A stretch of 64,000 nt of DNA from assembly GCA_021786945.1 (NCBI GenBank), contig JAJYMK010000003.1, positions 240,361 to 304,360 on the forward strand. Reading direction: 5' to 3'. Each line of letters begins with the position of its first letter. Within the stretch, counting starts at the first letter, position 1. Of this stretch, positions 25,796 through 54,537 are shown one piece after another. The DNA is from a bacterium (lineage in GTDB: Bacteria > Patescibacteriota > Minisyncoccia > UBA6257 > 02-FULL-45-10c). Under the pieces are notes generated by a model, which saw nothing but the letters and a program-made list of their open reading frames with translations, was not told the origin of the DNA and did no database searches. The translations under genes were made by a program, and so were the position numbers.

Positions 25796-26377
25796 TTATA
25801 CCCCAAATTGAACTAATTTTATCAATTCCTCTGTTAATTTCTTTGGTAAACCCATAACACTTTCAAATTCGCCGTCAATCCTATTGATGTACGGCGTCAA
25901 TAGAGAATGTTCTACAGCCAAACCCCCAGCAACATAAAATGGGTCTCCAGTTGCTATATATTTGTCTACAACTTCTTCCGGGATAGGATCTATCCAAGTT
26001 TTGGTAATATCCGTACCTTCAACTTTTTTATTCAAAGCTGTATTTACAACAACCACAGACGTAACAGTCTCGGCCGGATATTTTCTGTATATACTTACAA
26101 ATTCCCTGACTTGTTTTTCATCAACCGGTTTCTCCACTATTTTTCCGTTACAAACCACAACTTGATCGGAAGTAATCAAAATACACTCTTCTTTTTCTTT
26201 AAGTTTTTTTAAAATTGCATCTGCCTTTGCGTTTGCCAAAGCTATTGTAAGTTTTACAGGGTCGTCAAAACGGATCTGCTTCTCGTCTATATCCGCAGTC
26301 ACTACATCAAATTTATACCCCATCTGCTGCAGAACTTTTTTTCTACTGGCAGACTGGGATCCCAAAATTATTTTCAT
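25796..26377 (-). CDS. maf: Maf-like nucleoside triphosphate pyrophosphatase
   Basis: 193 aa (MKIILGSQSASRKKVLQQMGYKFDVVTADIDE ...), colinear with Maf. Confidence 0.85.
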   Translation of the reverse strand: MKIILGSQSASRKKVLQQMGYKFDVVTADIDEKQIRFDDPVKLTIALANAKADAILKKLKEKEECILITSDQVVVCNGKIVEKPVDEKQVREFVSIYRKYPAETVTSVVVVNTALNKKVEGTDITKTWIDPIPEEVVDKYIATGDPFYVAGGLAVEHSLLTPYINRIDGEFESVMGLPKKLTEELIKLVQFGV

Positions 26378-27057
26378 TATATTTCTTGTAATGCTTTTTT
26401 GGCCGCTTCTACCTCTGCGTCTTGCTTAGACATCCCCTGTCCTGAAGCGATCAATTTATCGGACAAATATACGCCAACAGTAAAAACTTTTTTATGGTCC
26501 GGGCCCTCTTCGCTAATTACCTTATATATAGGAGTAATTTTTTGACTGGCTTGAGTTTTTTCTTGTAATAAACTCTTGGCGTCTTTATACAAACCTTTTT
26601 CAACAACTTCTTCCAATTTAGCCATAACAAATTTTTCTATAAAACTCTTTGCACCGTCATATCCACCATCCAAATAAATAGCGCCTATTAAAGCCTCGAT
26701 AGCGTTAGCCAAAATCACATCTCTGGCCCTACCCATATCTTTCGCTTCTCCCTTGGAAAGCAACAATGAATTTTCCAGCTCTATTACTTTAGAAACCTCG
26801 GCAAGCATCTGATAATTCACCAGAGCCGCCCTGAAAGACGTAAGCTGGCCTTCCGCTGAATTGGGATATTTTTTGAATAATATTTCCGTAACCACCAATT
26901 CCAATACAGCGTCACCTAAAAATTCCAGTCTTTCGTTATGAGACACTTTCCAGCTTGGATTTTCATTTAAATACGAACGGTGCGTTAAAGCTTCTTTTAA
27001 AAATTCCTGATTTTTAAAACTATAAAAAATAGACTTTTCAAGTTTTTCTAATTCCAT
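26377..27057 (-). CDS. rnc: Ribonuclease III
   Basis: The RNase III signature ERLEFLGDAVLELVV is present, with a C-terminal dsRBD. 226 aa. Confidence 0.9.
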   Translation of the reverse strand: MELEKLEKSIFYSFKNQEFLKEALTHRSYLNENPSWKVSHNERLEFLGDAVLELVVTEILFKKYPNSAEGQLTSFRAALVNYQMLAEVSKVIELENSLLLSKGEAKDMGRARDVILANAIEALIGAIYLDGGYDGAKSFIEKFVMAKLEEVVEKGLYKDAKSLLQEKTQASQKITPIYKVISEEGPDHKKVFTVGVYLSDKLIASGQGMSKQDAEVEAAKKALQEI

Positions 27058-27147: not shown

Positions 27148-27642
27148 TTATTTTTCGACTTTCTTTTCTTCTTTTTTAACTTCCGGCTCGGTTTTTGCCT
27201 CGGGCTTTTTGTCGTCTTTTCCGGGCTCGCCAAGCTCTCTATATACGGTACCCAAAACTCCGTTTATGAATTTACCGGAATTCGGACCGCCATAATTTTT
27301 TGCAATCTCAATAGCTTCGTTTATAGCCACTTTTGGAGGAACTTCTTTCCTGTCCGCATACAAAAGTTCGTAAAGCCCTATTCTTAAGACATTTCTGTCG
27401 ACAATAGAAATTTGCTCAATCGGCCATTCCGGAGCTGCTTTAGTAATAATATTATCTATCTCTTTTTTGTGGGAGATAATATTTTTCATAAGATTCCAGA
27501 CAAATTCCGGCTCATCGATGCCGGGGCCAAATTCAACCATATTTCTTTCCAAGATTTTGGTCAGATCCTCTTTCTGATTATAAAAATCCCACTCGTAAAG
27601 AGATTGTAAAATTATAGATCTGGCTAAATGCCTGGTTGCCAT
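27148..27642 (-). CDS. nusB: Transcription antitermination factor NusB
   Basis: 164 aa, colinear with NusB ([14 protein letters not shown] ..., RIGLYELLY), with an acidic/lysine C-terminal tail. Confidence 0.85.
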
Positions 27643-27659
27643 TAAATTATTTAATTAAT

Positions 27660-27821
27660 TTATTGCTTTCCGTATTCTTTGCAATTCGGGCAAACTCTGT
27701 GAGACAAAACCGGAGACTTGCAATTTTTGCAGACAGAAACATTAACTTTTTTCAAAGCCTGATGAGCTCTGTGCATGCCAACTCTTGATTTTGATTTGTG
27801 TTTTACTGGTACGCCACCCAT
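27660..27821 (-). CDS. rpmF: 50S ribosomal protein L32
   Basis: Not in the ORF track (53 aa). The translation is MGGVPVKHKSKSRVGMHRAHQALKKVNVSVCKNCKSPVLSHRVCPNCKEYGKQ, with the L32 N-terminal basic motif and a C4 zinc ribbon. Confidence 0.8.
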   Translation of the reverse strand: MGGVPVKHKSKSRVGMHRAHQALKKVNVSVCKNCKSPVLSHRVCPNCKEYGKQ

Positions 27822-27885: not shown

Positions 27886-27921
27886 ATAAAAACCCCGGCA
27901 TTTTTGCCGGGGTTATTTTTG
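27886..27921. terminator. Bidirectional rho-independent terminator
   Basis: An 8-bp stem (ccccggca / tgccgggg) with a 4-nt loop, between an A-run and a T-run. It separates rpmF from the GC-rich islet. Confidence 0.55.
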
Positions 27922-27923
27922 GC

Positions 27924-28385
27924 TTAAGGAAAATGTGTGTATTTATTGGGATTATCCACGCTCTGTCCGTCTTTAATAATAACAGCATCCATCCTTTTGA
28001 AAACCTTGGGCGGTACATTCGTAAACTTGCGGGCTATAAGTCCGCCGTCTTGCCTGCGGAGTATTGCTACCCGCACACAGTCGGGAGTAGAAGTGGCGGT
28101 CACCACTTCGTATATTCCGTTTTCTTCCAGAGAATTCATTCCCTCGTCTCCGGGAAAAGCCGCACCGCAGCCCAACAGAAAAAACCTGCCACAGGCCGTT
28201 ATCAGTAAGATTACGCCTGCAAGCAAAGTAATAGGACTAGGCTCACCTTCAGCCTTTTCGACGTTAGTTTTTTTATGCTCTACGGATTTAGTGTGATAGC
28301 CGCATTTGTAACCGTAAAGCATTAAAAATAAAACTGCTACGACAAGAAAGAAACAAGCTAAGAACATATTTTCCTCCCAAACCAA
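27924..28385 (-). CDS. Hypothetical membrane protein (2 TM plus C-terminal soluble domain), in the GC-rich islet
   Basis: 153 aa. Its codon usage is visibly more GC-rich than neighbouring genes. I recognise no domain. Confidence 0.45.
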   Translation of the reverse strand: MVWEENMFLACFFLVVAVLFLMLYGYKCGYHTKSVEHKKTNVEKAEGEPSPITLLAGVILLITACGRFFLLGCGAAFPGDEGMNSLEENGIYEVVTATSTPDCVRVAILRRQDGGLIARKFTNVPPKVFKRMDAVIIKDGQSVDNPNKYTHFP

Positions 28386-28496
28386 GATTTAAAGAAACTG
28401 ACTTGATTAAAAACTAAATTAATCACGATGTCAATAAAAATAAAAAGCGGCGAGCCCCATTCCTCCATGAAAGAATTGGATTCGCCGCTCTTGTTT

Positions 28497-28919
28497 TTAG
28501 CGCACCTCCTTGCGCACTTCCTTACGCACCTTGAGCTTGCCCCGCCACATTGGGATGAGCTCGAACTCTTCCTCCTCCCAAGGAGAAAGACGTTCGGGGT
28601 ACTTCGACAGCTCCACCAGGCCAGCCTTCGCCGCTAACCTGCGCAAGCGCAGAAGTCCCCGCTCTTCGATCTGGCGGACACGTTCCCGGGAAAGCTTCAT
28701 CCGCTTCGCTATCTCACTGAGAATTAAGGGCCTTTTAATCCCCAACCCCCAATGCAGACGGATGATCTTCGCCTCCCTTTCGCCGATCTTATCGAGAAGC
28801 AGGTTAAGTTCCAAGGGTACTTGTTTCTTTTCGAATAGCACGGCGGGATCTTCCTGGTGTTTGTTGCCAAGCACCACTACTTCAACTTCATCCTGCCCGA
28901 TTGTGATTCTGAGATGCAT
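28497..28919 (-). CDS. Sigma-70 region 4 (HTH) domain protein, stand-alone or truncated sigma-factor fragment
   Basis: Residues ~45-105 (EREAKIIRLHWGLGIKRPLILSEIAKRMKLSRERVRQIEERGLLRLRR) match the sigma-70 region 3.2/4 consensus (L..RE..vl.lRfGl ... tLeEvg..f.vtRERiRQIE.kAlrKLR). There is no region 2 or 3. The C-terminus carries RKEVRKEVR, encoded by a ~12-bp tandem repeat. Local GC is roughly 55-60% against about 33% in the flanks. Confidence 0.6.
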   Translation of the reverse strand: MHLRITIGQDEVEVVVLGNKHQEDPAVLFEKKQVPLELNLLLDKIGEREAKIIRLHWGLGIKRPLILSEIAKRMKLSRERVRQIEERGLLRLRRLAAKAGLVELSKYPERLSPWEEEEFELIPMWRGKLKVRKEVRKEVR

Positions 28920-29021
28920 TTCTTTTTCTCCTTTACCAAATTTTTAACGGGCTCTTGCGAGCCGTTACTGGTATATATAATAACACATTTATATCTATTT
29001 TGTCAATGAACATTAATAAGT

Positions 29022-29050
29022 TTGACAATAGCCATATTTCATGTTTAAAT
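29022..29050 (+). promoter_or_regulatory. Putative sigma-70-type promoter for the secreted-protein gene
   Basis: TTGACA (29022-29027), a 17-nt spacer, then TTAAAT (29045-29050). An SD (aaaggag) lies at 29096-29102, 7 nt before the ATG at 29110. Confidence 0.35.
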
Positions 29051-29109
29051 ATCCCCAGTTCTCAAAATCAGGGTTAGCATTCCCTACAAAAATGTAAAGG
29101 AGAAGTATC

Positions 29110-29643
29110 ATGTACAAACACATGATTTCCGTGATGGTCGCAGCACTGTTCCTCGGGGTAATGAACTGCTTCGGGCAGAACATCAATCCCACCGTCCCTA
29201 AAAACGACGACAAAACCGTAAACGACCTCGTCAAAACCGTGGAAGTCCAGGTGAAAAACCTGGTAACTACGCAAAACGAGGAAGACGGAGAAAAGGCTTT
29301 CTCGAAAGCCGCAAGCATCATCGATGAAAAGACGATGGCCGCGGCCAAGGGCGACCTCAAGCAGTACGGCCAACTCCTCAACAAAACATGGCTAGTCTTC
29401 AACGACAGAACCAAGAAATTGGTTCCCGAGCTTATGAAAATGAAAGAGCTCAAGTCCGACAACGACTACGAAAAGGTTCTCCGGTACATGGATGCCGCTA
29501 CAGCTAAAGAGCTGCTGCGGCTAACAACGGCCGAAAGGATCATGAAAATTCTTCCCTCAAAAGAAGAGTTTGAAGCCACGACAAAGCGAGATCGGGCGAT
29601 CGACATACTCCTCAAAGGTCAGCCGTCAACCCAGAAAAAATGA
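29110..29643 (+). CDS. Hypothetical secreted protein (signal peptide plus alpha-helical domain), in the GC-rich islet
   Basis: An N-terminal signal-like hydrophobic segment (MISVMVAALFLGVMNCFGQ). It has a good SD and its own terminator, and its composition is GC-elevated. Confidence 0.5.
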   Translation: MYKHMISVMVAALFLGVMNCFGQNINPTVPKNDDKTVNDLVKTVEVQVKNLVTTQNEEDGEKAFSKAASIIDEKTMAAAKGDLKQYGQLLNKTWLVFNDRTKKLVPELMKMKELKSDNDYEKVLRYMDAATAKELLRLTTAERIMKILPSKEEFEATTKRDRAIDILLKGQPSTQKK

Positions 29644-29650
29644 CGGAAAA

Positions 29651-29686
29651 CAAGGCGCCGGCCAAAACCGGCGCCTTTTTCTTTCC
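29651..29686 (+). terminator. Rho-independent terminator
   Basis: A 9-bp GC stem (aggcgccgg / ccggcgcct), a 6-nt loop and a T-run. Confidence 0.6.
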
Positions 29687-29749
29687 AAAAAATTTTAAAA
29701 AAATGTTTTTTTAAGTTATTATATCTGTATACTTTTATTTTAAATTTTC

Positions 29750-32700
29750 ATGCCTCGCTTCACCCACTTACACGTTCACTCCCACTACTCACTTTTGGAT
29801 GGTTTGGCCAAAATAGACGATCTCGTAAACAGAACGAAAGAGCTCGGAATGGATTCTTTGGCAATTACCGATCATGGCAATCTTTACGGCGCAATTGAAT
29901 TTTACAAAAAAGCAAAAAAAGCCGGGATTAAACCGATTCTAGGAGTTGAAGCATATATGGCACCGAATGGCCGACATAGCAAAGTAAACCGCGTCGACGA
30001 CAGATATTACCATCTCGTTTTACTCGCCGAAAATACAACCGGCTGGAAAAATCTTATTCAACTTGTTACCAAAGCGAATCTTGAAGGTTTTTATTACAAA
30101 CCTAGAATAGATAAAGAAATTCTGCTCCAACACCATGAGGGTATTATCGGACTTTCCGCCTGCCCCGCCGGTGAAATAGGACAAGCTTTAATAAATAATA
30201 AATATATCAGAGCAAAAGAAATTGCCCTGGAATATCAGGAAATTTTCGGAAAAGGAAATTTCTTTTTGGAGATAGGCCATCACCCCGGCATCGAGGATGT
30301 ACAAAAAGTAAATGACGGCGTCAGAAAACTTTCAAAAGAACTTGGTATCGATATCGTTGCCACACAAGACACGCATTATTTAAAATCCGAAGACGCAAAA
30401 TATCACGATATTCTTTTGGCCGTACAAACAGGAAACACGGTAGACGATCCAGATAGACTCACGCTTAAAGACGACGATTTTTCATTACGCTCTCCCGAAC
30501 AGATGCTTGAACTTTTTAGCGATATACCTGAAGTACTCGAAAATACAGCAAAAATAGCAGATAGATGCAACGTGGAAATTCAGCTCGGAAAAATTATCTT
30601 GCCTAAATTTAATTTGCCCGAAAATGAAAACTCGATAGATTTTTTGGAAAAACTGGTGCAGGAAAAACTTCCAAAAAGATACCCGAATCTGGATGAGACT
30701 ACCAAAAAACGTCTAGACTACGAAATGAGTATTATTAAAAAAACTGGTTTCGTGGACTATTTCCTCATTGTTCAAGACTTCGTAAACTGGGCCAAAGAAA
30801 GAGGTATAGCCGTAGGTCCGGGAAGAGGCTCGGCTGCGGGCAGCATTGTTTCATATATTCTCGGGATTACCGACTTGGACCCGCTTCAATACGACTTGAT
30901 GTTCGAGAGATTTTTGAATCCGGAACGTATTTCAATGCCTGATATAGATTTGGATTTCACCGATACCCGCCGGGATGAAGTTTTTGGATATCTGCAGGAA
31001 AAATACGGCACTGATCACGTTGCCCATATTATTACATTCGGAACAATGGCCGCACGCGCTGCAATCAGAGACTGCGGAAGAGCCTTGGGCGTTCCTCTTT
31101 CACTTTGTGATACAGTGGCAAAATTAATTCCTTTTAATCCAACTCAGGGGATGAAAGAAGGCTGGATAGACGAAACACTTAAAAAAGTGGTTGAGTTCAA
31201 AACTATTTACGATACCAACGAACAGGCCAAAAAGGTTATAGACGCCGCCAAACATCTTGAAGGCGTAAACAGACACGCCTCCGTGCATGCTTGCGGCACG
31301 GTTATTTCCAAGGAACCACTCACGGAATATATGCCAATTCAATTTGCGCCTCAAGATAAAGATACAATCGTTACGCAATTTGAAATGCACAGCGTTGAAG
31401 ACCTTGGTCTTTTGAAAATCGATCTTCTCGGACTTAAAAACCTCACCATTATTGAAAACACCCTTAGACTGATAAAAGAAAATTACAATACCGATCTGGA
31501 TATAGGAAAAATTCCGTTGGACGATAAAAAAACATTTGAAATTTTGCAGGCTGCCGACACAACCGGAGTTTTCCAGCTGGAATCCAGCGGCATGCGAAGA
31601 TACCTCAAAGAACTCAAGCCTAACCAAATTGAGGATATTATCGCTATGGTTGCCTTGTACCGTCCCGGTCCGATGGAATTTATTCCTCAATACATCAACA
31701 GAAAATTCAAAAGAGAAAGAATTGTTTATCTGCATCCGAAGTTGGAACCGGCTCTCAAAAAAACATACGGTGTTATGATTTACCAAGAACAACTTATGAG
31801 AGTCGCCCAGGAACTGGCCGGATTCTCTCTTTCCGAAGCGGATACACTCAGAAAAGCTGTCGGTAAAAAAATAAAATCACTGCTCGACGAACAATCCCAG
31901 AAAATGATAGACGGCATGGTAAAAAATGGCATAGAAAAAAGAGTTGCTGAACAAATATGGCAATGGTTTGAACCATTTGCCAGATACGGATTCAACAGAA
32001 GCCACGCTGCATGCTATGCCCTAATCGGATACCGAACGGCTTATTTACGCGCTCACTACCCCGTTGAGTTCTATACCAGTCTTTTAAATTCCGATTCCGG
32101 CGATGTGGAAAGAGTAGCTTTCCTAATCGGTGAGGCCAAAAAAGTGGGAATTGAAGTGCTGGCTCCGGATATCAATAAAAGTTTTACCAGTTTCGTGCCT
32201 GAGGAAAAAAATATCCGTTTCGGTTTATTAGCTATTAAAAATATCGGGCAAAATATAGTGGATGCCATAATGGCAGAAAGGCAGAAAAATGGCCCATATA
32301 AAACATTAGTAGATTTACTGGAAAGAGTTGAACACAAAGATTTAAATAAAAAATCGCTTGAAAGCCTTATTAAATCAGGAGCTCTGGACTGTCTCGGAAT
32401 CGAAAGAAATCAGGCGCTAACTAATATAGAAGAGATTGTTAAATTTGCTTCCAATATTAGAAAATCAAAAACAGTAGCTCAAAATAGTCTTTTTGGAGGA
32501 TCTAAAGCTTCTGCAGGAGCTCTTAAAATGAAGCCTTGTACTCCGGCTACTTCTCTAGAAAGAATTGGATGGGAAAAAGAATTACTCGGTCTTTTTATTT
32601 CCGATCATCCCCTTAATGCCTATAAAGAAAAAATAAAAGCTCTTGGACTTACCGATATCAAAACAGCCATGGTCCGCGGAGATAATGACGAATGGATGAG

Positions 32701-32950
32701 GCCAAAAACAGTTAAAGTGGTCGGATTTATATCAAAAATTCAATCCATCACAACCAAACTGGGACAGCCAATGCTCTTTGTGGTTATTCAGGACTTTGAT
32801 GCCAGCGTGGAAATACTGGTCTTCTCCGATGTATTGGAAAAAACAAAAAATATCTGGAAAGAAGGCAATGTCGTTGTAGTTTCCGGTAAAATTTCTTTAC
32901 GCGACGAAGAATCAAAAATTATCTGCAATACCGCAAAAGAAATAAAATAG
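29750..32950 (+). CDS. dnaE: DNA polymerase III alpha subunit
   Basis: 1066 aa. The N-terminal PHP domain is HLHVHSHYSLLDGLAKIDDLV...ITDHGNLYG; the polymerase core is colinear with DnaE. A C-terminal OB fold is present. Confidence 0.95.
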   Translation: MPRFTHLHVHSHYSLLDGLAKIDDLVNRTKELGMDSLAITDHGNLYGAIEFYKKAKKAGIKPILGVEAYMAPNGRHSKVNRVDDRYYHLVLLAENTTGWKNLIQLVTKANLEGFYYKPRIDKEILLQHHEGIIGLSACPAGEIGQALINNKYIRAKEIALEYQEIFGKGNFFLEIGHHPGIEDVQKVNDGVRKLSKELGIDIVATQDTHYLKSEDAKYHDILLAVQTGNTVDDPDRLTLKDDDFSLRSPEQMLELFSDIPEVLENTAKIADRCNVEIQLGKIILPKFNLPENENSIDFLEKLVQEKLPKRYPNLDETTKKRLDYEMSIIKKTGFVDYFLIVQDFVNWAKERGIAVGPGRGSAAGSIVSYILGITDLDPLQYDLMFERFLNPERISMPDIDLDFTDTRRDEVFGYLQEKYGTDHVAHIITFGTMAARAAIRDCGRALGVPLSLCDTVAKLIPFNPTQGMKEGWIDETLKKVVEFKTIYDTNEQAKKVIDAAKHLEGVNRHASVHACGTVISKEPLTEYMPIQFAPQDKDTIVTQFEMHSVEDLGLLKIDLLGLKNLTIIENTLRLIKENYNTDLDIGKIPLDDKKTFEILQAADTTGVFQLESSGMRRYLKELKPNQIEDIIAMVALYRPGPMEFIPQYINRKFKRERIVYLHPKLEPALKKTYGVMIYQEQLMRVAQELAGFSLSEADTLRKAVGKKIKSLLDEQSQKMIDGMVKNGIEKRVAEQIWQWFEPFARYGFNRSHAACYALIGYRTAYLRAHYPVEFYTSLLNSDSGDVERVAFLIGEAKKVGIEVLAPDINKSFTSFVPEEKNIRFGLLAIKNIGQNIVDAIMAERQKNGPYKTLVDLLERVEHKDLNKKSLESLIKSGALDCLGIERNQALTNIEEIVKFASNIRKSKTVAQNSLFGGSKASAGALKMKPCTPATSLERIGWEKELLGLFISDHPLNAYKEKIKALGLTDIKTAMVRGDNDEWMRPKTVKVVGFISKIQSITTKLGQPMLFVVIQDFDASVEILVFSDVLEKTKNIWKEGNVVVVSGKISLRDEESKIICNTAKEIK

Positions 32951-38261: not shown

Positions 38262-39491
38262 TTAATTTTTAAGACAACGGACAGAAAAACCATAATTTTT
38301 ATCATTATTAGTAACTCGAACAACCGAAGAAGAATTAGCGTATAAGTCGCGTTCCAGGGCGTTATTTCCCGATGCAACTGACGCCCACATATTTACAACA
38401 CTTGAACGATTATTAAATAAACCATTTGTACCACGCCACCCAGCAAGAATACCGGAAAAACCAGTCGAATTATCACCATTTAATGTATAAGAAGAGAGGT
38501 GGCTTCCGGCAGGACTACATTGCCAACCAGTACTTATTTCACAGCCAGGAGTTCCTGCCGCATACTCAACAAGAGTCTTCCATTCCGTATCTGTAGGAAT
38601 GTGCCAACCGTTAGGACAGATGCCTTGAGCTCCAATGGTAGTGGAATATTGCATAGCTTCATTCCATTGATAAAGACCGCCGTCGGTTAAACAGTTAGCA
38701 TCCAAATCTGAATAACAATATTTTTCTATCATACCGTTATCGGTTTGATTGGAAACTCCGGCAATTCTTGTCCCAATATTCATATTTTGTGTCATCCAGC
38801 ACTGCGTGCCGATTAACGCAGTTAGATAAGTCTTACCACCATAATTAACTGATGCTGGGCAAACACCTAAGTTTGTATTCAAAGTCAAATCATTCCCCGT
38901 TTCAAATCTGGTTGAAGATGAGCCTCCATCAGATGTAGCACTAGTAGCAAGATATTTGTCAGATTCCATGGTAGCTGAAAGAGCCCAGGAACCGTGAATA
39001 TAGGTATAGTAATAACCATTGGTAGCAGCTGTGGATAGATCGGATGCTTGAATTGGATCTATCGGAAGATTAGAAAAAAGAGTTCCGGCTTGGGATTGTA
39101 TTGAGGTAAGGTCTACGGGTATCCAGCCGGTGCCATCTACATTTCTGTAGCTGGCAGAAGTGGAACAATGATAATTCCAGCCAGTGGAGGTGGCTGTAAG
39201 TTTGCCGTAGTAGGAACCGCATTGAGGATCTGTATCTGGAAGAGAAATATAAATAATATTGCTATTGCCCATAGCATTGCTATTGCCTCCGAAAGCCTGG
39301 AACAACATCAAGGCTTTGTTTATCTGATTGAGTTCCGTGATTCTATTGGCATCTCTGGATTGTTTGACTAACTGAGCTGGGTTTATGACTAAGAGGACTG
39401 TTGTGGCTAGGACTGCTAATATACCTATGACTATGAGGAGTTCTATGAGGGTGAAGGCTTTTCGGGATTTGAATCTTGAATAATATTTCAT
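38262..39491 (-). CDS. Type IV pilin-like protein with C-terminal FISUMP-like (Fibrobacter succinogenes major paralogous) domain
   Basis: The N-terminal class III signal and pilin helix is RKAFTLIELLIVIGILAVLATTVLLVINP. The C-terminal ~190 aa match the FISUMP pattern (GKTY..IG.QCWM.QN ... GLYQWNEAM ... CPNGWHIPTDTEW..L ... NYGFSVRCL). 409 aa. Confidence 0.75.
   Translation of the reverse strand: MKYYSRFKSRKAFTLIELLIVIGILAVLATTVLLVINPAQLVKQSRDANRITELNQINKALMLFQAFGGNSNAMGNSNIIYISLPDTDPQCGSYYGKLTATSTGWNYHCSTSASYRNVDGTGWIPVDLTSIQSQAGTLFSNLPIDPIQASDLSTAATNGYYYTYIHGSWALSATMESDKYLATSATSDGGSSSTRFETGNDLTLNTNLGVCPASVNYGGKTYLTALIGTQCWMTQNMNIGTRIAGVSNQTDNGMIEKYCYSDLDANCLTDGGLYQWNEAMQYSTTIGAQGICPNGWHIPTDTEWKTLVEYAAGTPGCEISTGWQCSPAGSHLSSYTLNGDNSTGFSGILAGWRGTNGLFNNRSSVVNMWASVASGNNALERDLYANSSSVVRVTNNDKNYGFSVRCLKN
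38877..39491. repeat. Dispersed repeat copy A: conserved pilin N-terminal module (about 615 bp)
   Basis: It is about 88% identical at the DNA level to 53923-54537. A more diverged third copy lies at about 43960-44562. Confidence 0.8.
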
Positions 39492-43350: not shown

Positions 43351-44562
43351 TTAATACGAACAAGCACAACTTGTCTGCCTGTTGCAATTGTAATAACAAA
43401 CAGAAGGAAAACTGCCATAGCTATACCAGCTTGAATACCAATATTTACCGCCGCAATAAACAGACGTACCGCTTATCCAAGAATTACTCGGACAAATTTT
43501 TGAGCAACCATTGAATCCAGAAATAATAGAGCAAACAGTTGTATTAGATTGACAACCCAAAGCAGAAGATGAACCAGCGGAAGCATTATCACTAGCATTA
43601 AAATATTTATATGTTCCTCCCGCAACCCATTGGCAAGAACTATTATATCCATAAGTTGTAGATGTGTAGCCTGGCGAACAAATAGCCGTACCGATACCGC
43701 TTTTATTTCCAATACCATTAGCATTTTTTGCTGCAATCTCATAAAAATAACTCGTGGCTGGATTAATTGTTGTGTCTGAATAAGTTAAAACATCGCCAAC
43801 TTCAATCAAAAAAGTTTCAGGATCGGATAAACTTCCCCTATAAATTTCATAATTAGTTATTGTTGACCCGCCATCATTCAGGGGCGCTACCCAGGTCAAT
43901 ACAACTTGAGAGCTATCTGCCGTTGCCACAACTGTTTGCGGAACAGAAGGCAAAGAAGATCCTCCACCACCACTAGCTAAATTAATATCAAGGGCTAAAT
44001 TATTTCCCAACTCGAACCTTGTATCAGAAACTCCTCCATCGTTAATAGCGGTTGAAGAAAGATATTTATCAGATTCAAGAGTAGCAGAAAGAGCCCAGGA
44101 ACCAGGGATATAGGTGTAGTAGTAGCCGTTGGCTACGGTATTGACTGGATCTATAGGAAGACTGGAGAAAAGAGTTCCGGCAGAAGATTGGACTGAAGAT
44201 AGATTGACTGGTATCCATCCATTGCCGTCAATATTGCGATAATGTTCAAAATCCGAACAATGATACTGACCGCTACTTAAAACCGGGAGACCAAGGTCGG
44301 AACAATCAGCTTGGGCGCTGGGTAAAGATACGTAGACATCTCCATGAGTACCCATACTGGTACTACCTCCGAAGGATTGATACAAAAGTAAGGCGCCATT
44401 TAATTGATTAATTTCTGCTATTCTATTCCCATCCCTGGATTGTTTAACTAATTGAACTGGATTTATAACTAAGAGGGTTGCCGTAGCTAAAATGGACAAA
44501 ATACCAACTACAATCAAAAGCTCAATAAGAGTAAATCCCAAAAAATAATTTTTCTGAAACAT
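43351..44562 (-). CDS. Type IV pilin-like protein with fibronectin type III-like and Cys-rich C-terminal domains
   Basis: The N-terminus is GFTLIELLIVVGILSILATATLLVINP. About 60% aa identity to the other two pilins over the first ~200 aa. A FN3-like block (VVLTWVAPLNDGGSTITNYEIYRGS) precedes a C-terminal ~110 aa holding about 14 Cys. 403 aa. Confidence 0.7.
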   Translation of the reverse strand: MFQKNYFLGFTLIELLIVVGILSILATATLLVINPVQLVKQSRDGNRIAEINQLNGALLLYQSFGGSTSMGTHGDVYVSLPSAQADCSDLGLPVLSSGQYHCSDFEHYRNIDGNGWIPVNLSSVQSSAGTLFSSLPIDPVNTVANGYYYTYIPGSWALSATLESDKYLSSTAINDGGVSDTRFELGNNLALDINLASGGGGSSLPSVPQTVVATADSSQVVLTWVAPLNDGGSTITNYEIYRGSLSDPETFLIEVGDVLTYSDTTINPATSYFYEIAAKNANGIGNKSGIGTAICSPGYTSTTYGYNSSCQWVAGGTYKYFNASDNASAGSSSALGCQSNTTVCSIISGFNGCSKICPSNSWISGTSVYCGGKYWYSSWYSYGSFPSVCYYNCNRQTSCACSY

Positions 44563-52414: not shown

Positions 52415-52765
52415 TTATACCCATCCCAGCTTCCTACATCTCTTACAGGCATCTTTCTTTAATGATCTTTTTTTCGCCAGAGAAAAAAGAGTTTTTACGG
52501 AAATTTTTAGCTCTTTTTTCGCATCAAGATAGAGCCAATTACCCACTCCATCCACTATCGCGGCGCAAAGCACTTTTCTTTTTCCGCGGAAACCTATATA
52601 GGCTCCGCCGAATCTCCTGCCTATGCAAGGTTTGGAATGAGCCACCATGTAAGCATTTTTCAGGCGCTGCTCTTCCAGATGCTCATTCACATCCCCTTCT
52701 ACTTTATGCCAGACGAGCATACCGTCTTTTGTGAGTTTTATTACCCAATCAACGATTTCCTTCAT
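52415..52765 (-). CDS. Hypothetical protein (116 aa), GC-elevated
   Basis: A strong SD (ggaggtgag) directly precedes the ATG. It ends in a Cys-containing basic tail (CKRCRKLGW). I recognise no domain. Confidence 0.4.
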   Translation of the reverse strand: MKEIVDWVIKLTKDGMLVWHKVEGDVNEHLEEQRLKNAYMVAHSKPCIGRRFGGAYIGFRGKRKVLCAAIVDGVGNWLYLDAKKELKISVKTLFSLAKKRSLKKDACKRCRKLGWV

Positions 52766-52795
52766 CTCACCTCCTATTATCGAAATAATGCCGGA

Positions 52796-52948
52796 TTAGT
52801 AAAACTTCTTCGCCCTTGCTGCTTCCCGGCAAGCTTTAACGCCGAGCATGCTCAGCTGAATCCTGAGTCTTTCCAGCTCTTTATTTTGGCGCCGCAATTC
52901 TTCATCCTGCTTTTTTATTTTCCTCTCAAGCTCTTTTTTTGTAGCCAT
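52796..52948 (-). CDS. Hypothetical small coiled-coil protein (50 aa), not in the ORF track
   Basis: An SD (aaggag) lies 6 nt upstream of the ATG. The translation is MATKKELERKIKKQDEELRRQNKELERLRIQLSMLGVKACREAARAKKFY. It is co-oriented with and 30 nt upstream of the 116-aa gene. Confidence 0.4.
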   Translation of the reverse strand: MATKKELERKIKKQDEELRRQNKELERLRIQLSMLGVKACREAARAKKFY

Positions 52949-53043: not shown

Positions 53044-54537
53044 TTATTTCTGACCGTTATAAATAGCCAACGCCTCATCAGCTGTAAGAGCGCGGTTATA
53101 AACAGCTACTTCGTCAATTTTTCCGCCATAAGGCTGATTTAATGCTCCGCCAATACTATCCCTTTTAGCTCCAACTTGCTGAGGGTAACTTCCAAGATTA
53201 GAACATAGTCCCGCTGTTCCAAAAGAACCGGTTTTATCTAATTGTCCATTGATATAAATATTTGCCACGCCAGTAGTTTTATCGTACGTAACTAAAATAT
53301 GAGTCCATGTATTTAAACTAATCGTTGTTACCGACCAAATATTTGGAGTATTTGAGCAGTCGGTAGAAACCATCCAATTTACTTCTGAAGTATAGGGAGA
53401 CATTACTTCTGGAGAAGCAAGAACTAACTGGTATTGTCTAGCAGTAATACCGCTCCAATACCACCTAGAAGCCAAGGCATCCCACCAACCATCCATAGGC
53501 AAAGTTGTTCTATATACCCACAAAGAAATTGAAATTGAAGATGCAGCTAAAGAAGGCAGGGGCTGATCAACTGCAGAAATAAGACTTGAATCAAAATTCA
53601 AAGCTCCATTTACTTTTCCTGAAGTCCAAGACGCGCCATTATATAAAGTTCCTGTATAGCCATTTCCGCTAGAATCAGATGCGGATGTTCCGCTGCCATC
53701 ATCAAACTTCCAATAACCGACAAGTCCGCTCGTCGGAATCTGATAAGTACAAGCACTGGTATTGAAGCTCAGACAATCGGCATTGCATGAAAGAGTTCCG
53801 GTGTATCCGACACCTAGCTGAGTGGCGCAGGTCTGGGAATTGAGGTCGGTACCGTCACAGGTTTCTCCGGTCTCTTTGAGGTTGTTGCCGCAAGTGGCTC
53901 CGGCTATACCTCCTCCAAGATTCGCATTCAACGTCAAATCATTTCCGAGTTCAAATCTAGTACTGGATTGTCCTCCATCGGATACGGCATTAGCGGCAAG
54001 GTATTTGTCGGATTCCATGGTAGCAGAAAGAGCCCAGGAACCGTGGATATAGGTATAGTAATAACCATTGGTAGCGGCAGCGGATAGATCGGATGCCTGA
54101 ATGGGATCTATGGGAAGATTTGAGAATAAAGTTCCGGCTTGTCCTTGTATAGAACTTAGATCTACAGGTATCCAGCCTGTACCGTCTATATTTCTGTAGT
54201 TGGCAGAGGTGGAGCAATGATAGTTCCAGCCTGTGGTGGTGGCTGTAAGTTGGCCGTAGTAGGAACCGCATTGGGAATCTGTATCCGGAAGAGAGATATA
54301 TATCGTATTACTATTACCCATAGCCGTGCTGGATCCTCCGAAAGACTGGAAGAACAACAAAGCTTGGTTTATCTGATTTATTTCTGTGATTCTATTGGCA
54401 TCTCTGGATTGCTTAACTAACTGAGCTGGGTTTATGACTAAGAGAACTGTTGTTGCTAAGACTGCTAATATACCTATGACTATCAGGAGTTCTATGAGGG
54501 TGAAGGCTTTTCTATTTTTATTCCAATTATTTAGCAT
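53044..54537 (-). CDS. Type IV pilin-like protein with C-terminal LamG/concanavalin A-like lectin domain
   Basis: The N-terminal 205 aa are about 90% identical to the pilin at 38262-39491. The C-terminal ~240 aa look like a LamG-like jelly-roll (LVGYWKFDDGSGTSASDSSGNGYTGTLYNGASWTSGKVNGALNFD ...). 497 aa. Confidence 0.75.
   Translation of the reverse strand: MLNNWNKNRKAFTLIELLIVIGILAVLATTVLLVINPAQLVKQSRDANRITEINQINQALLFFQSFGGSSTAMGNSNTIYISLPDTDSQCGSYYGQLTATTTGWNYHCSTSANYRNIDGTGWIPVDLSSIQGQAGTLFSNLPIDPIQASDLSAAATNGYYYTYIHGSWALSATMESDKYLAANAVSDGGQSSTRFELGNDLTLNANLGGGIAGATCGNNLKETGETCDGTDLNSQTCATQLGVGYTGTLSCNADCLSFNTSACTYQIPTSGLVGYWKFDDGSGTSASDSSGNGYTGTLYNGASWTSGKVNGALNFDSSLISAVDQPLPSLAASSISISLWVYRTTLPMDGWWDALASRWYWSGITARQYQLVLASPEVMSPYTSEVNWMVSTDCSNTPNIWSVTTISLNTWTHILVTYDKTTGVANIYINGQLDKTGSFGTAGLCSNLGSYPQQVGAKRDSIGGALNQPYGGKIDEVAVYNRALTADEALAIYNGQK
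53923..54537. repeat. Dispersed repeat copy B: conserved pilin N-terminal module
   Basis: About 88% DNA identity to 38877-39491, in the same orientation, 14.4 kb apart. Confidence 0.8.

What the first reader, a model, noticed from the sequence alone, without database searches (positions are those of the whole stretch)
27924..29700. GC-rich (about 50-60% against about 33%) 1.8-kb islet encoding a sigma-70 region-4-only protein, a small membrane protein and a secreted protein
Seen in sequence: composition changes abruptly after the terminator at 27886-27921 and returns to AT-rich at the dnaE promoter region. The 140-aa protein at 28497-28919 carries a clear sigma-70 region 3.2/4 HTH block (LSEIAKRMKLSRERVRQIEERGLLRLRR) but no region 2, so it cannot act as a sigma factor alone. 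Its C-terminus is RKEVRKEVR, encoded by a slippage-prone 12-bp tandem repeat (gcgcacctcctt / gcgcacttcctta / cgcacc...). Inference: the islet is horizontally acquired, possibly from a phage or a higher-GC bacterium. The protein could be a decoy or anti-sigma-like regulator that binds -35 elements, core RNAP or an anti-sigma partner. Alternatively it is a gene remnant. Why a reduced genome retains it is the interesting question.
Basis: partly seen in the sequence, partly recalled or inferred. Interest (0 to 1): 0.6.

Follow-up and report, generated by a model that had tools for sequence, protein, structure and literature searches.

The report
Borrowed half-sigma gene in a CPR bacterium
A tiny symbiotic-type (CPR) bacterium keeps a working gene for only the tail half of another phylum's main sigma factor, in a changeable spot between two housekeeping genes. 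The gene has stayed oddly GC-rich in every relative that carries it, so it looks like a long-kept accessory regulator, not fresh foreign DNA or a dead remnant.

Summary
Window 27924-29700 is the most GC-rich 1.8 kb of the window (46% against 36%). The 140-aa ORF (28497-28919, minus strand) is sigma region 3.2 plus region 4 with no region 2. The 12-bp repeat at its 3' end exists.

The "three-gene islet" does not hold. The membrane-protein gene is a native, lineage-conserved gene. The variable unit is a two-gene cassette of about 1.25 kb: secreted protein and r4, divergently transcribed.

The r4 gene is not a frameshifted sigma. It has an 11/12 consensus promoter and its own terminator, and dN/dS is about 0.14. 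Its small, rare family sits in the same dnaE-rpmF gap in at least seven related CPR lineages and in a pyrG-recR gap in a second CPR group. It is absent from that gap in some close relatives.

The family resembles Elusimicrobiota-type primary sigmas (98-108 bits) far more than the one CPR RpoD I could reach (31 bits).

Synonymous sites are saturated, yet r4 GC3 exceeds flank GC3 in 11 of 11 genes. The composition is therefore being maintained and is not a recent-transfer scar.

Function is inferred. I favour a stand-alone sigma-domain-4 regulator that competes at -35-like DNA and possibly at the RNAP flap.

The parts
27891..27914 (-). Backbone terminator upstream of the rpmF promoter. It ends the membrane-protein gene.
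   Evidence: Terminator scan. The same hairpin precedes rpmF in every related locus, whatever gene lies upstream.
27924..28367 (-). Native 147-aa protein with two TM helices. The ORF is listed to 28385 with a TTG start, but homologues start at the ATG at 28367.
   Evidence: Homologues are 74-80% identical. This is the sole gene in the dnaE-rpmF gap of L173-L177. dN/dS is 0.10-0.20. AF2 gives helices 2-29 and 45-68; the C-terminal domain was not modelled. GC3 is 0.44.
28406..28434 (-). Promoter of the membrane-protein gene (TTGACA-17-TTTAAT). It marks the right-hand edge of the inserted cassette.
   Evidence: Read from the sequence and aligned with the uninterrupted L173/L175 spacer.
28435..28490 (-). 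Terminator of the r4 gene: an AGCGGCGA/TCGCCGCT stem with a long loop, followed by a T-run.
   Evidence: Read from the sequence. An orthologous hairpin follows r4a in L001. The simple scan missed it because the loop is long.
28497..28919 (-). r4 gene, 140 aa. It comprises an N-terminal beta-hairpin aligned to the sigma finger (3.2), the family EDPA motif, sigma domain 4 (HTH, aa 41-93, nt 28641-28799) and a disordered basic/acidic tail.
   Evidence: Pfam, NCBIfam and PDB profile matches. AF2 model and Foldseek hits to sigmaA in holoenzyme structures. dN/dS is 0.14 against L001 r4a. GC is 54% and GC3 0.66.
28500..28531 (-). 12-bp tandem repeat encoding RKEVRKEVR.
   Evidence: TRF: period 12, 2.7 copies. 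The orthologue P0002 ends RKEAR, one unit shorter.
28928..28965 (-). 5' leader: GNRA-type hairpin (28947-28965), a UUAAAAAU tract and the SD AAGGAG (28928-28933).
   Evidence: Alignment of 8 leaders. The hairpin appears in the MFE fold of 6 of 8, and the window's leader has z = -3.7. Compensatory changes were read by eye.
28977..29006 (-). r4 promoter: TTGACA-18-TG-n-TATTAT.
   Evidence: 11/12 match with TG. Invariant TTGACA and TGn-TAT in 8 loci.
29022..29052 (+). Likely promoter of the 177-aa gene (TTGACA-17-TTAAAT). Its -35 lies back-to-back with the r4 -35, giving TTGTCAA-N15-TTGACAA.
   Evidence: Read from the sequence. The same inverted arrangement occurs in L166 (N15) and L181 (N14). 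The scan tool did not call it.
29110..29643 (+). 177-aa protein with an N-terminal signal-like segment. It evolves fast and is the divergent partner of r4.
   Evidence: Only itself was found among 5.8 billion proteins. It is homologous to the divergent partners in L166 and L181 (27-32% identity, E=1.6e-9 to 3e-14). GC3 is 0.65.
29652..29677 (.). Bidirectional terminator ending the 177-aa gene. It marks the left-hand edge of the cassette, next to the dnaE promoter.
   Evidence: Terminator scan. Junction comparison with L173.

Best explanation
Shown:
- The 140-aa gene is a domesticated C-terminal fragment of a foreign, Elusimicrobiota-type primary sigma factor. It carries the sigma finger (region 3.2), domain 4 and the lineage-specific tail.
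- It is a long-resident, fast-evolving accessory gene of a clade of CPR (Minisyncoccota) bacteria.
- It lies in a variable slot between dnaE and rpmF. In this genome it forms a self-contained, divergently transcribed two-gene cassette with a fast-evolving secreted-type protein. The cassette is inserted next to a native membrane-protein gene.

Inferred:
- The protein most likely works as a stand-alone sigma-domain-4 HTH regulator.
- In the window protein and most relatives it keeps the residues that read a -35 TTGACA element. It would bind -35-like DNA, including the back-to-back -35 boxes of its own and its partner's promoters.
- There it would compete with domain 4 of the housekeeping sigma, regulating itself, the partner gene and perhaps other -35-dependent promoters.
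- Contact with the RNAP beta-flap is possible but not required by this model.

The persistently high GC3 is a real property of the locus, maintained by selection or by GC-biased recombination. It is not a leftover of recent transfer.
For: Identity:
- Pfam r4 E=1.1e-12 with no r2 or r3 hit.
- The family profile aligns to B. subtilis SigA 266-359.
- The AF2 domain-4 core has pLDDT 84-92, and Foldseek aligns about 100 residues to sigmaA in holoenzyme structures.

Functional gene:
- dN/dS is 0.11-0.20 with dS saturated.
- The promoter matches consensus 11/12 with TG, and the leader and terminator are conserved.

Resident and accessory:
- The same dnaE-rpmF slot is used in the window, L001 (two tandem copies), L166, L170 and L182. 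L181 is bounded by dnaE, and L169 and L172 by rpmF/nusB.
- A pyrG-recR slot is used in L171 and L178.
- The gene is absent from the slot in L173-L177.

Foreign origin:
- Elusimicrobiota RpoDs score 98-108 bits against the family profile. The CPR RpoD in L178 scores 30.9 bits.
- P0018 keeps the full tail MGLVE..QPGW..KTDILGDAIP.KPY.
- Every family member's nearest non-family sequence is of the Elusimicrobiota type: 35-64% identity, against 14-32% to CPR RpoD.

DNA-binding reading:
- The equivalents of sigma70 R584, E585, R586, R588 and Q589 are kept in most members.
- One branch, P0027, adds a weak, below-cutoff Cro/C1-like HTH at the N-terminus.
- The gene is transcribed divergently from a homologous partner gene in 3 loci, with a conserved TTGTCAA-N14/15-TTGACAA arrangement.

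Not a substitute for a missing domain: the L178 genome has a full five-region RpoD.

GC is maintained: r4 GC3 exceeds flank GC3 in 11 of 11 genes (mean +0.26) and tracks flank GC3 (Spearman 0.79).
Against: - No binding or expression data exist. The mechanism is inferred from domain identity and gene arrangement.
- A subclade (P0005, P0033, L182) has replaced the -35-reading residues (SGCRVQQ, STCRVQQ). TTGACA recognition is therefore not universal in the family.
- Most r4 genes lack the secreted partner, so a purely local regulator does not explain retention.
- The N-terminal hairpin, aligned to the sigma finger, is unexplained by a pure DNA-binding model. It could be a dimerisation element or an RNAP contact.
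- Phylogenetic support is weak: 93-95 columns, with bootstrap support of 53/200 for family monophyly and 21/200 for family plus Elusimicrobiota-type.
- The host genome's own rpoD could not be retrieved. The CPR RpoD used for comparison comes from the second CPR group.
- The cause of the high GC3 is not established.
Confidence: 0.45

Rival explanations
1. RNAP-binding domain-4 mimic or decoy. The fragment occupies the beta-flap tip and RNA-exit channel in the way sigma 3.2-4 does. It would either damp -35-dependent transcription, sparing extended -10 promoters like its own, or soak up phage proteins that target sigma domain 4. In the second case it would be an anti-phage decoy under arms-race pressure.
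For: - The protein keeps region 3.2 as well as domain 4, and the hydrophobic 4.1/4.2 positions equivalent to sigma70 F563, I565 and L598.
- The model superposes on sigmaA over about 100 residues in holoenzyme structures.
- It evolves fast: dN is about twice that of its neighbours.
- It is patchy in presence and absence, and tandemly duplicated in L001, in a variable hotspot.
- Its own promoter has a TGn extended -10.
- Phage contigs independently encode stand-alone sigma 3.x-4 ORFs.
Against: - No defence-system or phage-family signal was found beyond generic r4 similarity.
- No neighbouring defence genes were seen.
- The flap-contact inference comes from memory of sigma70 genetics and was not tested here.
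- TGn is also present at the rpmF promoter, so it is not distinctive.
- dN/dS shows purifying selection overall, not positive selection.
Confidence: 0.25
2. One half of a split, two-subunit sigma factor. A separate region-2 protein encoded elsewhere in the genome would pair with this fragment.
For: The fragment begins exactly at the domain 3 / region 3.2 boundary. From background knowledge, not checked here, two-subunit or functionally split sigmas are known: B. subtilis SigO-RsoA and T4 gp55/gp33.
Against: - No region-2 ORF lies next to it in any of about 11 loci. The neighbours are membrane, secreted or unrelated proteins.
- No other sigma segment exists in the 64-kb window.
- A related CPR genome has a complete RpoD.
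- The gene is absent from the slot in close relatives.
Confidence: 0.05
3. One reading: a recently acquired foreign islet, from a phage or a GC-rich bacterium, whose composition has simply not yet ameliorated.
For: There is a compositional anomaly. The sigma fragment has a foreign affinity. Presence among relatives is patchy.
Against: - The slot and the truncation point are the same across lineages whose r4 proteins are only 35-71% identical.
- dS is 1.4 to above 4 between r4 orthologues, the same as in flanking genes, yet GC3 stays at 0.56-0.75 in all but one of the 11 genes (0.39 in L171, still above its flanks).
- r4 GC3 tracks host GC3.
- L166 and L181 group together by both dnaE sequence and shared derived r4 motifs.
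- There is no integrase, tRNA or target-site repeat.
- There are no close phage or plasmid matches.
- The membrane gene is native.
Confidence: 0.07
4. Decaying remnant of a sigma gene with no function.
For: It is N-terminally truncated relative to every sigma factor.
Against: dN/dS is 0.11-0.20. It has an intact consensus promoter, SD and terminator. All family members are truncated at the same point and share a derived EDPA motif.
Confidence: 0.02

Closest known systems
C-terminal part (region 3.2 plus domain 4) of group-1 sigma factors, specifically Elusimicrobiota-type RpoD
   Same: Sequence and predicted fold match. The protein also carries the post-domain-4 tail (RMGLIE..PGW..TDILG..K-rich) that is peculiar to these RpoDs.
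   Different: It lacks regions 1.1 to 3.1 entirely and has its own promoter and start codon. It carries a derived EDPA motif. It resides in CPR genomes, not Elusimicrobiota.
GerE/LuxR-type single-domain HTH regulators (for example B. subtilis GerE)
   Same: From background knowledge, these are small proteins made of little more than a sigma-domain-4-like HTH, acting alone as transcription regulators. This is the logic proposed here.
   Different: There is no Pfam GerE (PF00196) match at E<=1. This protein is a true sigma70 r4 plus 3.2 fragment, not a member of the LuxR lineage.
Phage T4 gp33, and the sigma-domain-4 binders AsiA and Rsd
   Same: From background knowledge, these are factors that act at the sigma4 / beta-flap interface and redirect or inhibit RNAP. 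They are the model for the rival reading.
   Different: There is no sequence or fold relationship. Here the actor would be a copy of domain 4 itself.
Two-subunit sigma SigO-RsoA (B. subtilis)
   Same: From background knowledge, sigma functions are divided between two polypeptides.
   Different: No region-2 partner is adjacent or detectable in the window.
GafA, activator of the Rhodobacter gene transfer agent
   Same: It is a regulator whose C-terminus resembles sigma factors but which is not a canonical sigma. In some Rhizobiales it is split into separate ORFs (PMC6363796).
   Different: GafA pairs a DnaA-like DNA-binding domain with an RpoE-like segment. It is not a group-1 3.2-4 fragment and no homology was shown here.
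MzaA, the sigma-like component of the MZA anti-phage system
   Same: Its last ~70-80 residues match the r4 domain (E=1.9e-13 NCBIfam, 9.3e-10 PADLOC).
   Different: Only the generic r4 domain matches, covering 73 of 726 profile positions. No other Mza genes are nearby.

Membership tests
Sigma-70 family sigma factor (functional) | Region 2 (core binding, -10 recognition and melting; PF04542) | tested here: not met
   No Pfam hit at E<=1. tblastn with a full RpoD finds only residues 211-323 in the window. The promoter lies directly upstream.
Sigma-70 family sigma factor (functional) | Region 4 HTH (PF04545) | tested here: met
   E=1.1e-12, above the gathering score. Confirmed by PDB profile and fold matches.
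Sigma-70 family sigma factor (functional) | Region 3.2 linker / sigma finger | tested here: met
   The family profile aligns from position 4-6 onward to SigA 262-359 and sigma70 505-600. The model has a beta-hairpin at aa 2-15 with low pLDDT of 52-53.
LuxR/GerE stand-alone HTH regulators | Match to PF00196 (GerE) | tested here: not met
   Not listed at E<=1.
Two-subunit sigma (SigO-RsoA type) | Co-encoded partner supplying region-2 function | tested here: not met
   None of about 11 loci has a sigma-like neighbour. The rest of the genome was not searchable.
Recently acquired genomic island | Composition deviating from the host | tested here: met
Recently acquired genomic island | Mobility hallmarks: integrase, a tRNA or direct-repeat boundary, or a near-identical copy in a donor or mobile element | tested here: not met
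   No such ORFs. No Rfam or tRNA-type hit. The junctions carry no evident repeat. No close phage or plasmid match.
Recently acquired genomic island | Recency: little divergence among carriers, with composition decaying toward the host | tested here: not met
   dS is 1.4 to above 4 among r4 orthologues, yet GC3 remains above flank GC3 in 11 of 11 genes.
Known anti-phage defence systems (PADLOC) | Match to a defence-specific protein model and co-located system partners | tested here: not met
   Only the r4 end of MzaA matches, and there are no partners.
The r4-only CPR family defined here | 100-185 aa; N-terminal beta segment; EDPA motif; sigma domain 4; RMGL[IV]E extension; GC-rich relative to flanks; own TTGACA/TGn promoter | tested here: met

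The most novel reading that the evidence does not exclude
A CPR lineage captured the domain-4 half of another phylum's housekeeping sigma factor. It keeps the fragment as a rapidly evolving molecular mimic at the sigma4 / beta-flap / -35 interface. The mimic would act either as a decoy against phage proteins that hijack sigma domain 4, or as a tool acting on an Elusimicrobiota-like partner's transcription machinery. Its GC-rich coding would be actively maintained, for example by GC-biased gene conversion at a recombination hotspot.
Probability: 0.12. Interest if true: 0.8.

Novelty: new variant of a known kind. Interest (0 to 1): 0.55.

Why it matters
Three things would matter if confirmed.

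- **A new way to make a regulator.** A fragment of a foreign housekeeping sigma, exapted in one of the most gene-poor bacterial groups, would be a clean natural example. These bacteria have very few transcription factors.
- **A testable case about base composition.** Here a compositional "island" is not a recent-transfer scar. GC3 stays about 0.26 above the flanks after synonymous saturation. This bears on how base composition is maintained in AT-rich reduced genomes, whether by selection or by biased gene conversion.
- **A natural in-trans domain-4 competitor.** The family offers such a competitor for studies of the RNAP flap and -35 recognition.

Tried and rejected
- **Frameshifted longer sigma.** Rejected by tblastn and by promoter position.
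- **Dual coding with the 145-aa antisense ORF (28510-28947).** Rejected. Antisense open frames are not frame-conserved among 10 homologues, so they are a by-product of GC-richness.
- **GC-richness caused by a structured RNA.** No Rfam family reached gathering score in the window or three sibling loci.
- **GC-richness caused by translational selection.** Ribosomal-protein and other housekeeping genes have GC3 of 0.24-0.40.
- **Phage origin.** IMG/VR hits are at most 46% identical and mostly full-length sigmas. PHROGs gives only generic sigma. INPHARED hits are about 36% identical.
- **Plasmid origin.** No match.
- **Defence-system membership.** No specific match.
- **Function of the 177-aa protein.** No homologues or domains were found.
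- **Fold of the membrane protein's C-terminal domain.** AF2 pLDDT was 34-41, so no fold search was attempted.
- **Robust phylogeny.** Only 93-95 alignable columns were available and bootstraps were weak.
- **Literature.** No paper describing stand-alone sigma 3.2-4 proteins in CPR was found.
- **The host's own rpoD.** It could not be retrieved, because tools reach only about 10 kb around listed proteins.
Full report
**1. What is in the sequence**

The window is 36.4% GC. The stretch 27924-29700 is 46.1% GC and is the highest-ranking 1776-bp window (mean 36.3%, sd 2.7). The single richest 200-bp window of the whole 64 kb (60.5%) lies inside the r4 gene.

Gene order here is as follows:

| Gene | Coordinates | Strand |
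|---|---|---|
| rnc | 26377-27057 | - |
| nusB | 27148-27642 | - |
| rpmF | 27660-27821 | - |
| membrane protein | 27924-28367 | - |
| r4 | 28497-28919 | - |
| 177-aa protein | 29110-29643 | + |
| dnaE | 29750-32950 | + |

Among 67 ORFs in the window, GC3 averages 0.335 (sd 0.075). The r4 gene (0.66) and the 177-aa gene (0.65) are far outside that range. The membrane gene (0.44) is only mildly raised. Ribosomal-protein genes are not raised, so translational selection is not the cause.

**2. The 140-aa protein**

Pfam gives Sigma70_r4 (E=1.1e-12, aa 41-93) and nothing for regions 2 or 3. NCBIfam RpoD/RpoS models and a PDB profile search align residues ~5-99 to the final ~95 residues of group-1 sigmas, for example B. 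subtilis SigA 266-359. That stretch is the region 3.2 finger plus domain 4.

An AlphaFold model built from a 17-sequence alignment gives:
- a beta-hairpin at aa 2-15;
- helices at 25-45, 47-57, 67-74 and 78-98, with pLDDT of 84-92 over aa 41-90;
- a disordered tail.

Foldseek's best hits are sigmaA and sigmaS chains inside holoenzyme structures, with about 85-109 aligned columns.

The gene is not the end of a longer sigma. A TTGACA-18-TGnTATTAT promoter (11/12 match) lies at 29006-28977. The divergent gene begins 190 bp upstream. tblastn with a full RpoD finds no other sigma segment anywhere in the window.

The 12-bp repeat at the 3' end is real. It accounts for a one-unit (KEVR) length difference from the closest orthologue.

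**3. The 'islet' is two things**

In relatives whose dnaE is 86-91% identical to the window's (L173-L177), the dnaE-rpmF gap contains only the 147-aa membrane-protein gene. That protein is 74-80% identical across them, with dN/dS of 0.10-0.20.

Aligning the spacers places the window's extra DNA precisely between the dnaE promoter region and the -35 box of the membrane gene's promoter. The insert runs from about 28435 to about 29685. It is a compact cassette: terminator, 177-aa gene, back-to-back promoters, r4 gene, terminator. I saw no integrase, tRNA or evident target repeat.

The membrane gene is therefore native. The anomalous unit is the two-gene cassette.

**4. The r4 gene is an old resident of this lineage**

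Exact-protein and profile searches recovered a small, rare family of 100-185-aa region-4-only proteins. Only 5 representatives scored below 1e-30 among 1.84 billion.

| Locus | Arrangement |
|---|---|
| L001 | dnaE / r4a / r4b / rpmF |
| L166, L167 | dnaE / sec145 / r4 / rpmF |
| L169 | r4 / rpmF |
| L170 | dnaE / r4 / rpmF |
| L172 | r4 / about 1 kb / rpmF |
| L181 | dnaE / sec175 / r4 / 177-aa cytoplasmic protein |
| L182 | dnaE / r4 / 181-aa protein / rpmF |
| L171, L178 (second CPR group) | r4 between pyrG and recR |

All members share the same truncation point and an invariant DP within a derived EDPA motif. All the dnaE-rpmF-type genes share three features: the TTGACA / TGn-extended -10 promoter, a 5' hairpin followed by UUAAAAAUCU, and an SD.

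The secreted-type partners in the window, L166 and L181 are homologous but very divergent (27-32% identity, E=1.6e-9 to 3e-14).

Between the window and L001, dnaE, nusB and rnc are 84-87% identical while r4 is 71% identical. For r4, dN/dS is 0.14, against 0.04-0.08 for the neighbours. The gene is functional and evolves about twice as fast as its neighbours.

**5. Origin**

Scans of GTDB genomes and JGI metagenomes returned almost only full-length (~350 aa) Elusimicrobiota-type RpoDs. Most come from 55-68% GC contigs and are 40-56% identical to r4 over aa 8-135. These scans are pattern-biased, so I checked the result in other ways:

- The exhaustive profile search puts Elusimicrobiota-type sequences (P0029, P0038, P0069) among the best-scoring sigmas longer than the family.
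- With the same profile, Elusimicrobiota RpoDs score 98-108 bits. The complete CPR RpoD found 6 kb from an r4 gene in L178 scores 30.9 bits.
- Over 95 aligned columns, every family member's nearest non-family sequence is of the Elusimicrobiota type. Identity is 35-64%, against 14-32% to the CPR RpoD.
- Family member P0018 retains the whole Elusimicrobiota-specific tail after domain 4.

The NJ tree shows the family (minus one rogue sequence) as sister to the Elusimicrobiota-type clade. Bootstraps are weak. I therefore rest the foreign-origin claim on profile scores and the shared tail, not on the tree. No phage or plasmid source emerged.

**6. The composition is maintained, not residual**

Synonymous differences between r4 orthologues are saturated (pS 0.63-0.75, dS 1.4 to above 4), exactly as in flanking genes. 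Nevertheless r4 GC3 exceeds flank GC3 in 11 of 11 genes from 10 loci, by 0.13 to 0.37 (mean 0.26). It also rises and falls with flank GC3 (Spearman 0.79, p=0.004, not phylogenetically corrected). The partner genes are also GC3-rich, at 0.55-0.69.

A fading transfer signature would not survive that much synonymous turnover. It would also not track the host. Some gene- or locus-specific GC-ward force is acting. The candidates are selection on the mRNA or DNA, and GC-biased gene conversion at a recombination hotspot. I could not discriminate between them.

Two alternatives are excluded:
- Antisense dual coding.
- A known (Rfam-curated) structured RNA.

**7. Mechanism (inferred)**

The host lineage has a complete RpoD. 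The gene is dispensable in close relatives. No region-2 partner is adjacent anywhere. An essential split sigma is therefore unlikely.

By alignment to sigma70, the window protein and most relatives keep R584, E585, R586, R588 and Q589, the -35-reading residues. That numbering comes from my own knowledge of sigma70.

One branch has added a weak, below-cutoff Cro/C1-like HTH. Three loci pair r4 divergently with a homologous gene, across a conserved TTGTCAA-N14/15-TTGACAA arrangement of back-to-back -35 boxes.

I therefore favour a stand-alone domain-4 HTH regulator that competes with sigmaA domain 4 at -35-like DNA. The main rival is a beta-flap / RNA-exit-channel mimic or decoy. It is suggested by the retained region 3.2, the fast evolution, the tandem duplication and the hotspot location. 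A subclade with altered recognition residues (SGCRVQQ) shows that TTGACA reading is not universal.

**8. Comparison and novelty**

The protein works like a GerE-type single-domain regulator, or alternatively like a flap-directed factor such as T4 gp33. It is a member of neither group. It is a true sigma70 3.2-4 fragment that fails the sigma-factor membership test, because it has no region 2.

I found no description of such a family in the literature searched. GafA is only a loose analogue.

I class it as a new variant of a known kind. The persistent GC3 offset and the cross-phylum origin are the genuinely unusual elements.

Noticed in passing
P0017 (938 aa), P0023, P0034, P0035, P0040, P0044, P0052, P0054, P0056, P0077: Metagenomic proteins made of 6-11 tandem copies of a sigma region-4-like unit. 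P0017 has 10 Pfam Sigma70_r4 stretches, with whole-protein E=1.1e-75. I am not aware of a described architecture like this.
   Followed up: partly
L090:5875-6291, L094:5812-6225, L097:5776-6207 (IMG/VR contigs): Phage contigs encode stand-alone 137-143-aa ORFs that consist of the end of sigma region 3 plus 3.2 plus region 4. In L090 no adjacent region-2 ORF is present. This looks like an independent parallel to the CPR family.
   Followed up: partly
L172:150-400 and L172:1230-1700: In one sibling locus the r4 gene is flanked by GC-rich (50-55%) stretches that have a consensus promoter and a terminator but no long ORF. They could be small RNAs, small proteins or decayed partner genes. No Rfam family matched.
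   Followed up: partly
window 28947-28965 and the equivalent positions in L001, L166, L169, L170, L172, L181: A conserved hairpin with a mostly GNRA-type loop sits a few nucleotides after the predicted transcription start of r4 genes, followed by UUAAAAAUCU. Compensatory changes are visible by eye (G-C to A-U). It may be an mRNA-stabilising or regulatory leader.
   Followed up: partly
window 29001-29027; L166 ~1240-1275; L181 ~1960-2000: The -35 boxes of the divergent r4 and partner promoters form an inverted repeat, TTGTCAA-N14/15-TTGACAA. The spacing is conserved in all three loci that have the pair. This is a candidate operator for a domain-4 protein.
   Followed up: no
L181:2816-3349 and L182:4481-5026: A third kind of accessory gene occupies the same dnaE-rpmF hotspot in two relatives. 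It encodes a 177-181-aa cytoplasmic-looking protein beginning MSDIRA.QIEHLKKLGY. No Pfam match was found.
   Followed up: partly
P0027 (L178:8001-8558): The pyrG-recR branch of the family has a 185-aa member with an added N-terminal segment. It weakly resembles a Cro/C1-type HTH (PF13443, E=0.0019, below the cutoff).
   Followed up: partly
window 52415-52948: Two small ORFs (116 and 50 aa) with somewhat raised GC3 (0.43 and 0.51) sit next to a 497-aa pilin-like gene (53044-54537, 43% GC). This is the second most GC-rich region of the window.
   Followed up: no
window 38262-39491, 43351-44562, 53044-54537: Three large proteins begin with a type-IV-pilin-like prepilin motif (KAFTLIELLIVIGILAVLA or GFTLIELLIVVGILSILA).
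   Followed up: no
downstream of rnc in L001, L173-L177 and L170, compared with window 26377: A small gene (DUF7768, or ASCH in L170) lies between rnc and maf in relatives. It is absent in the window, where rnc and maf abut. This is another small presence/absence difference in the neighbourhood.
   Followed up: no
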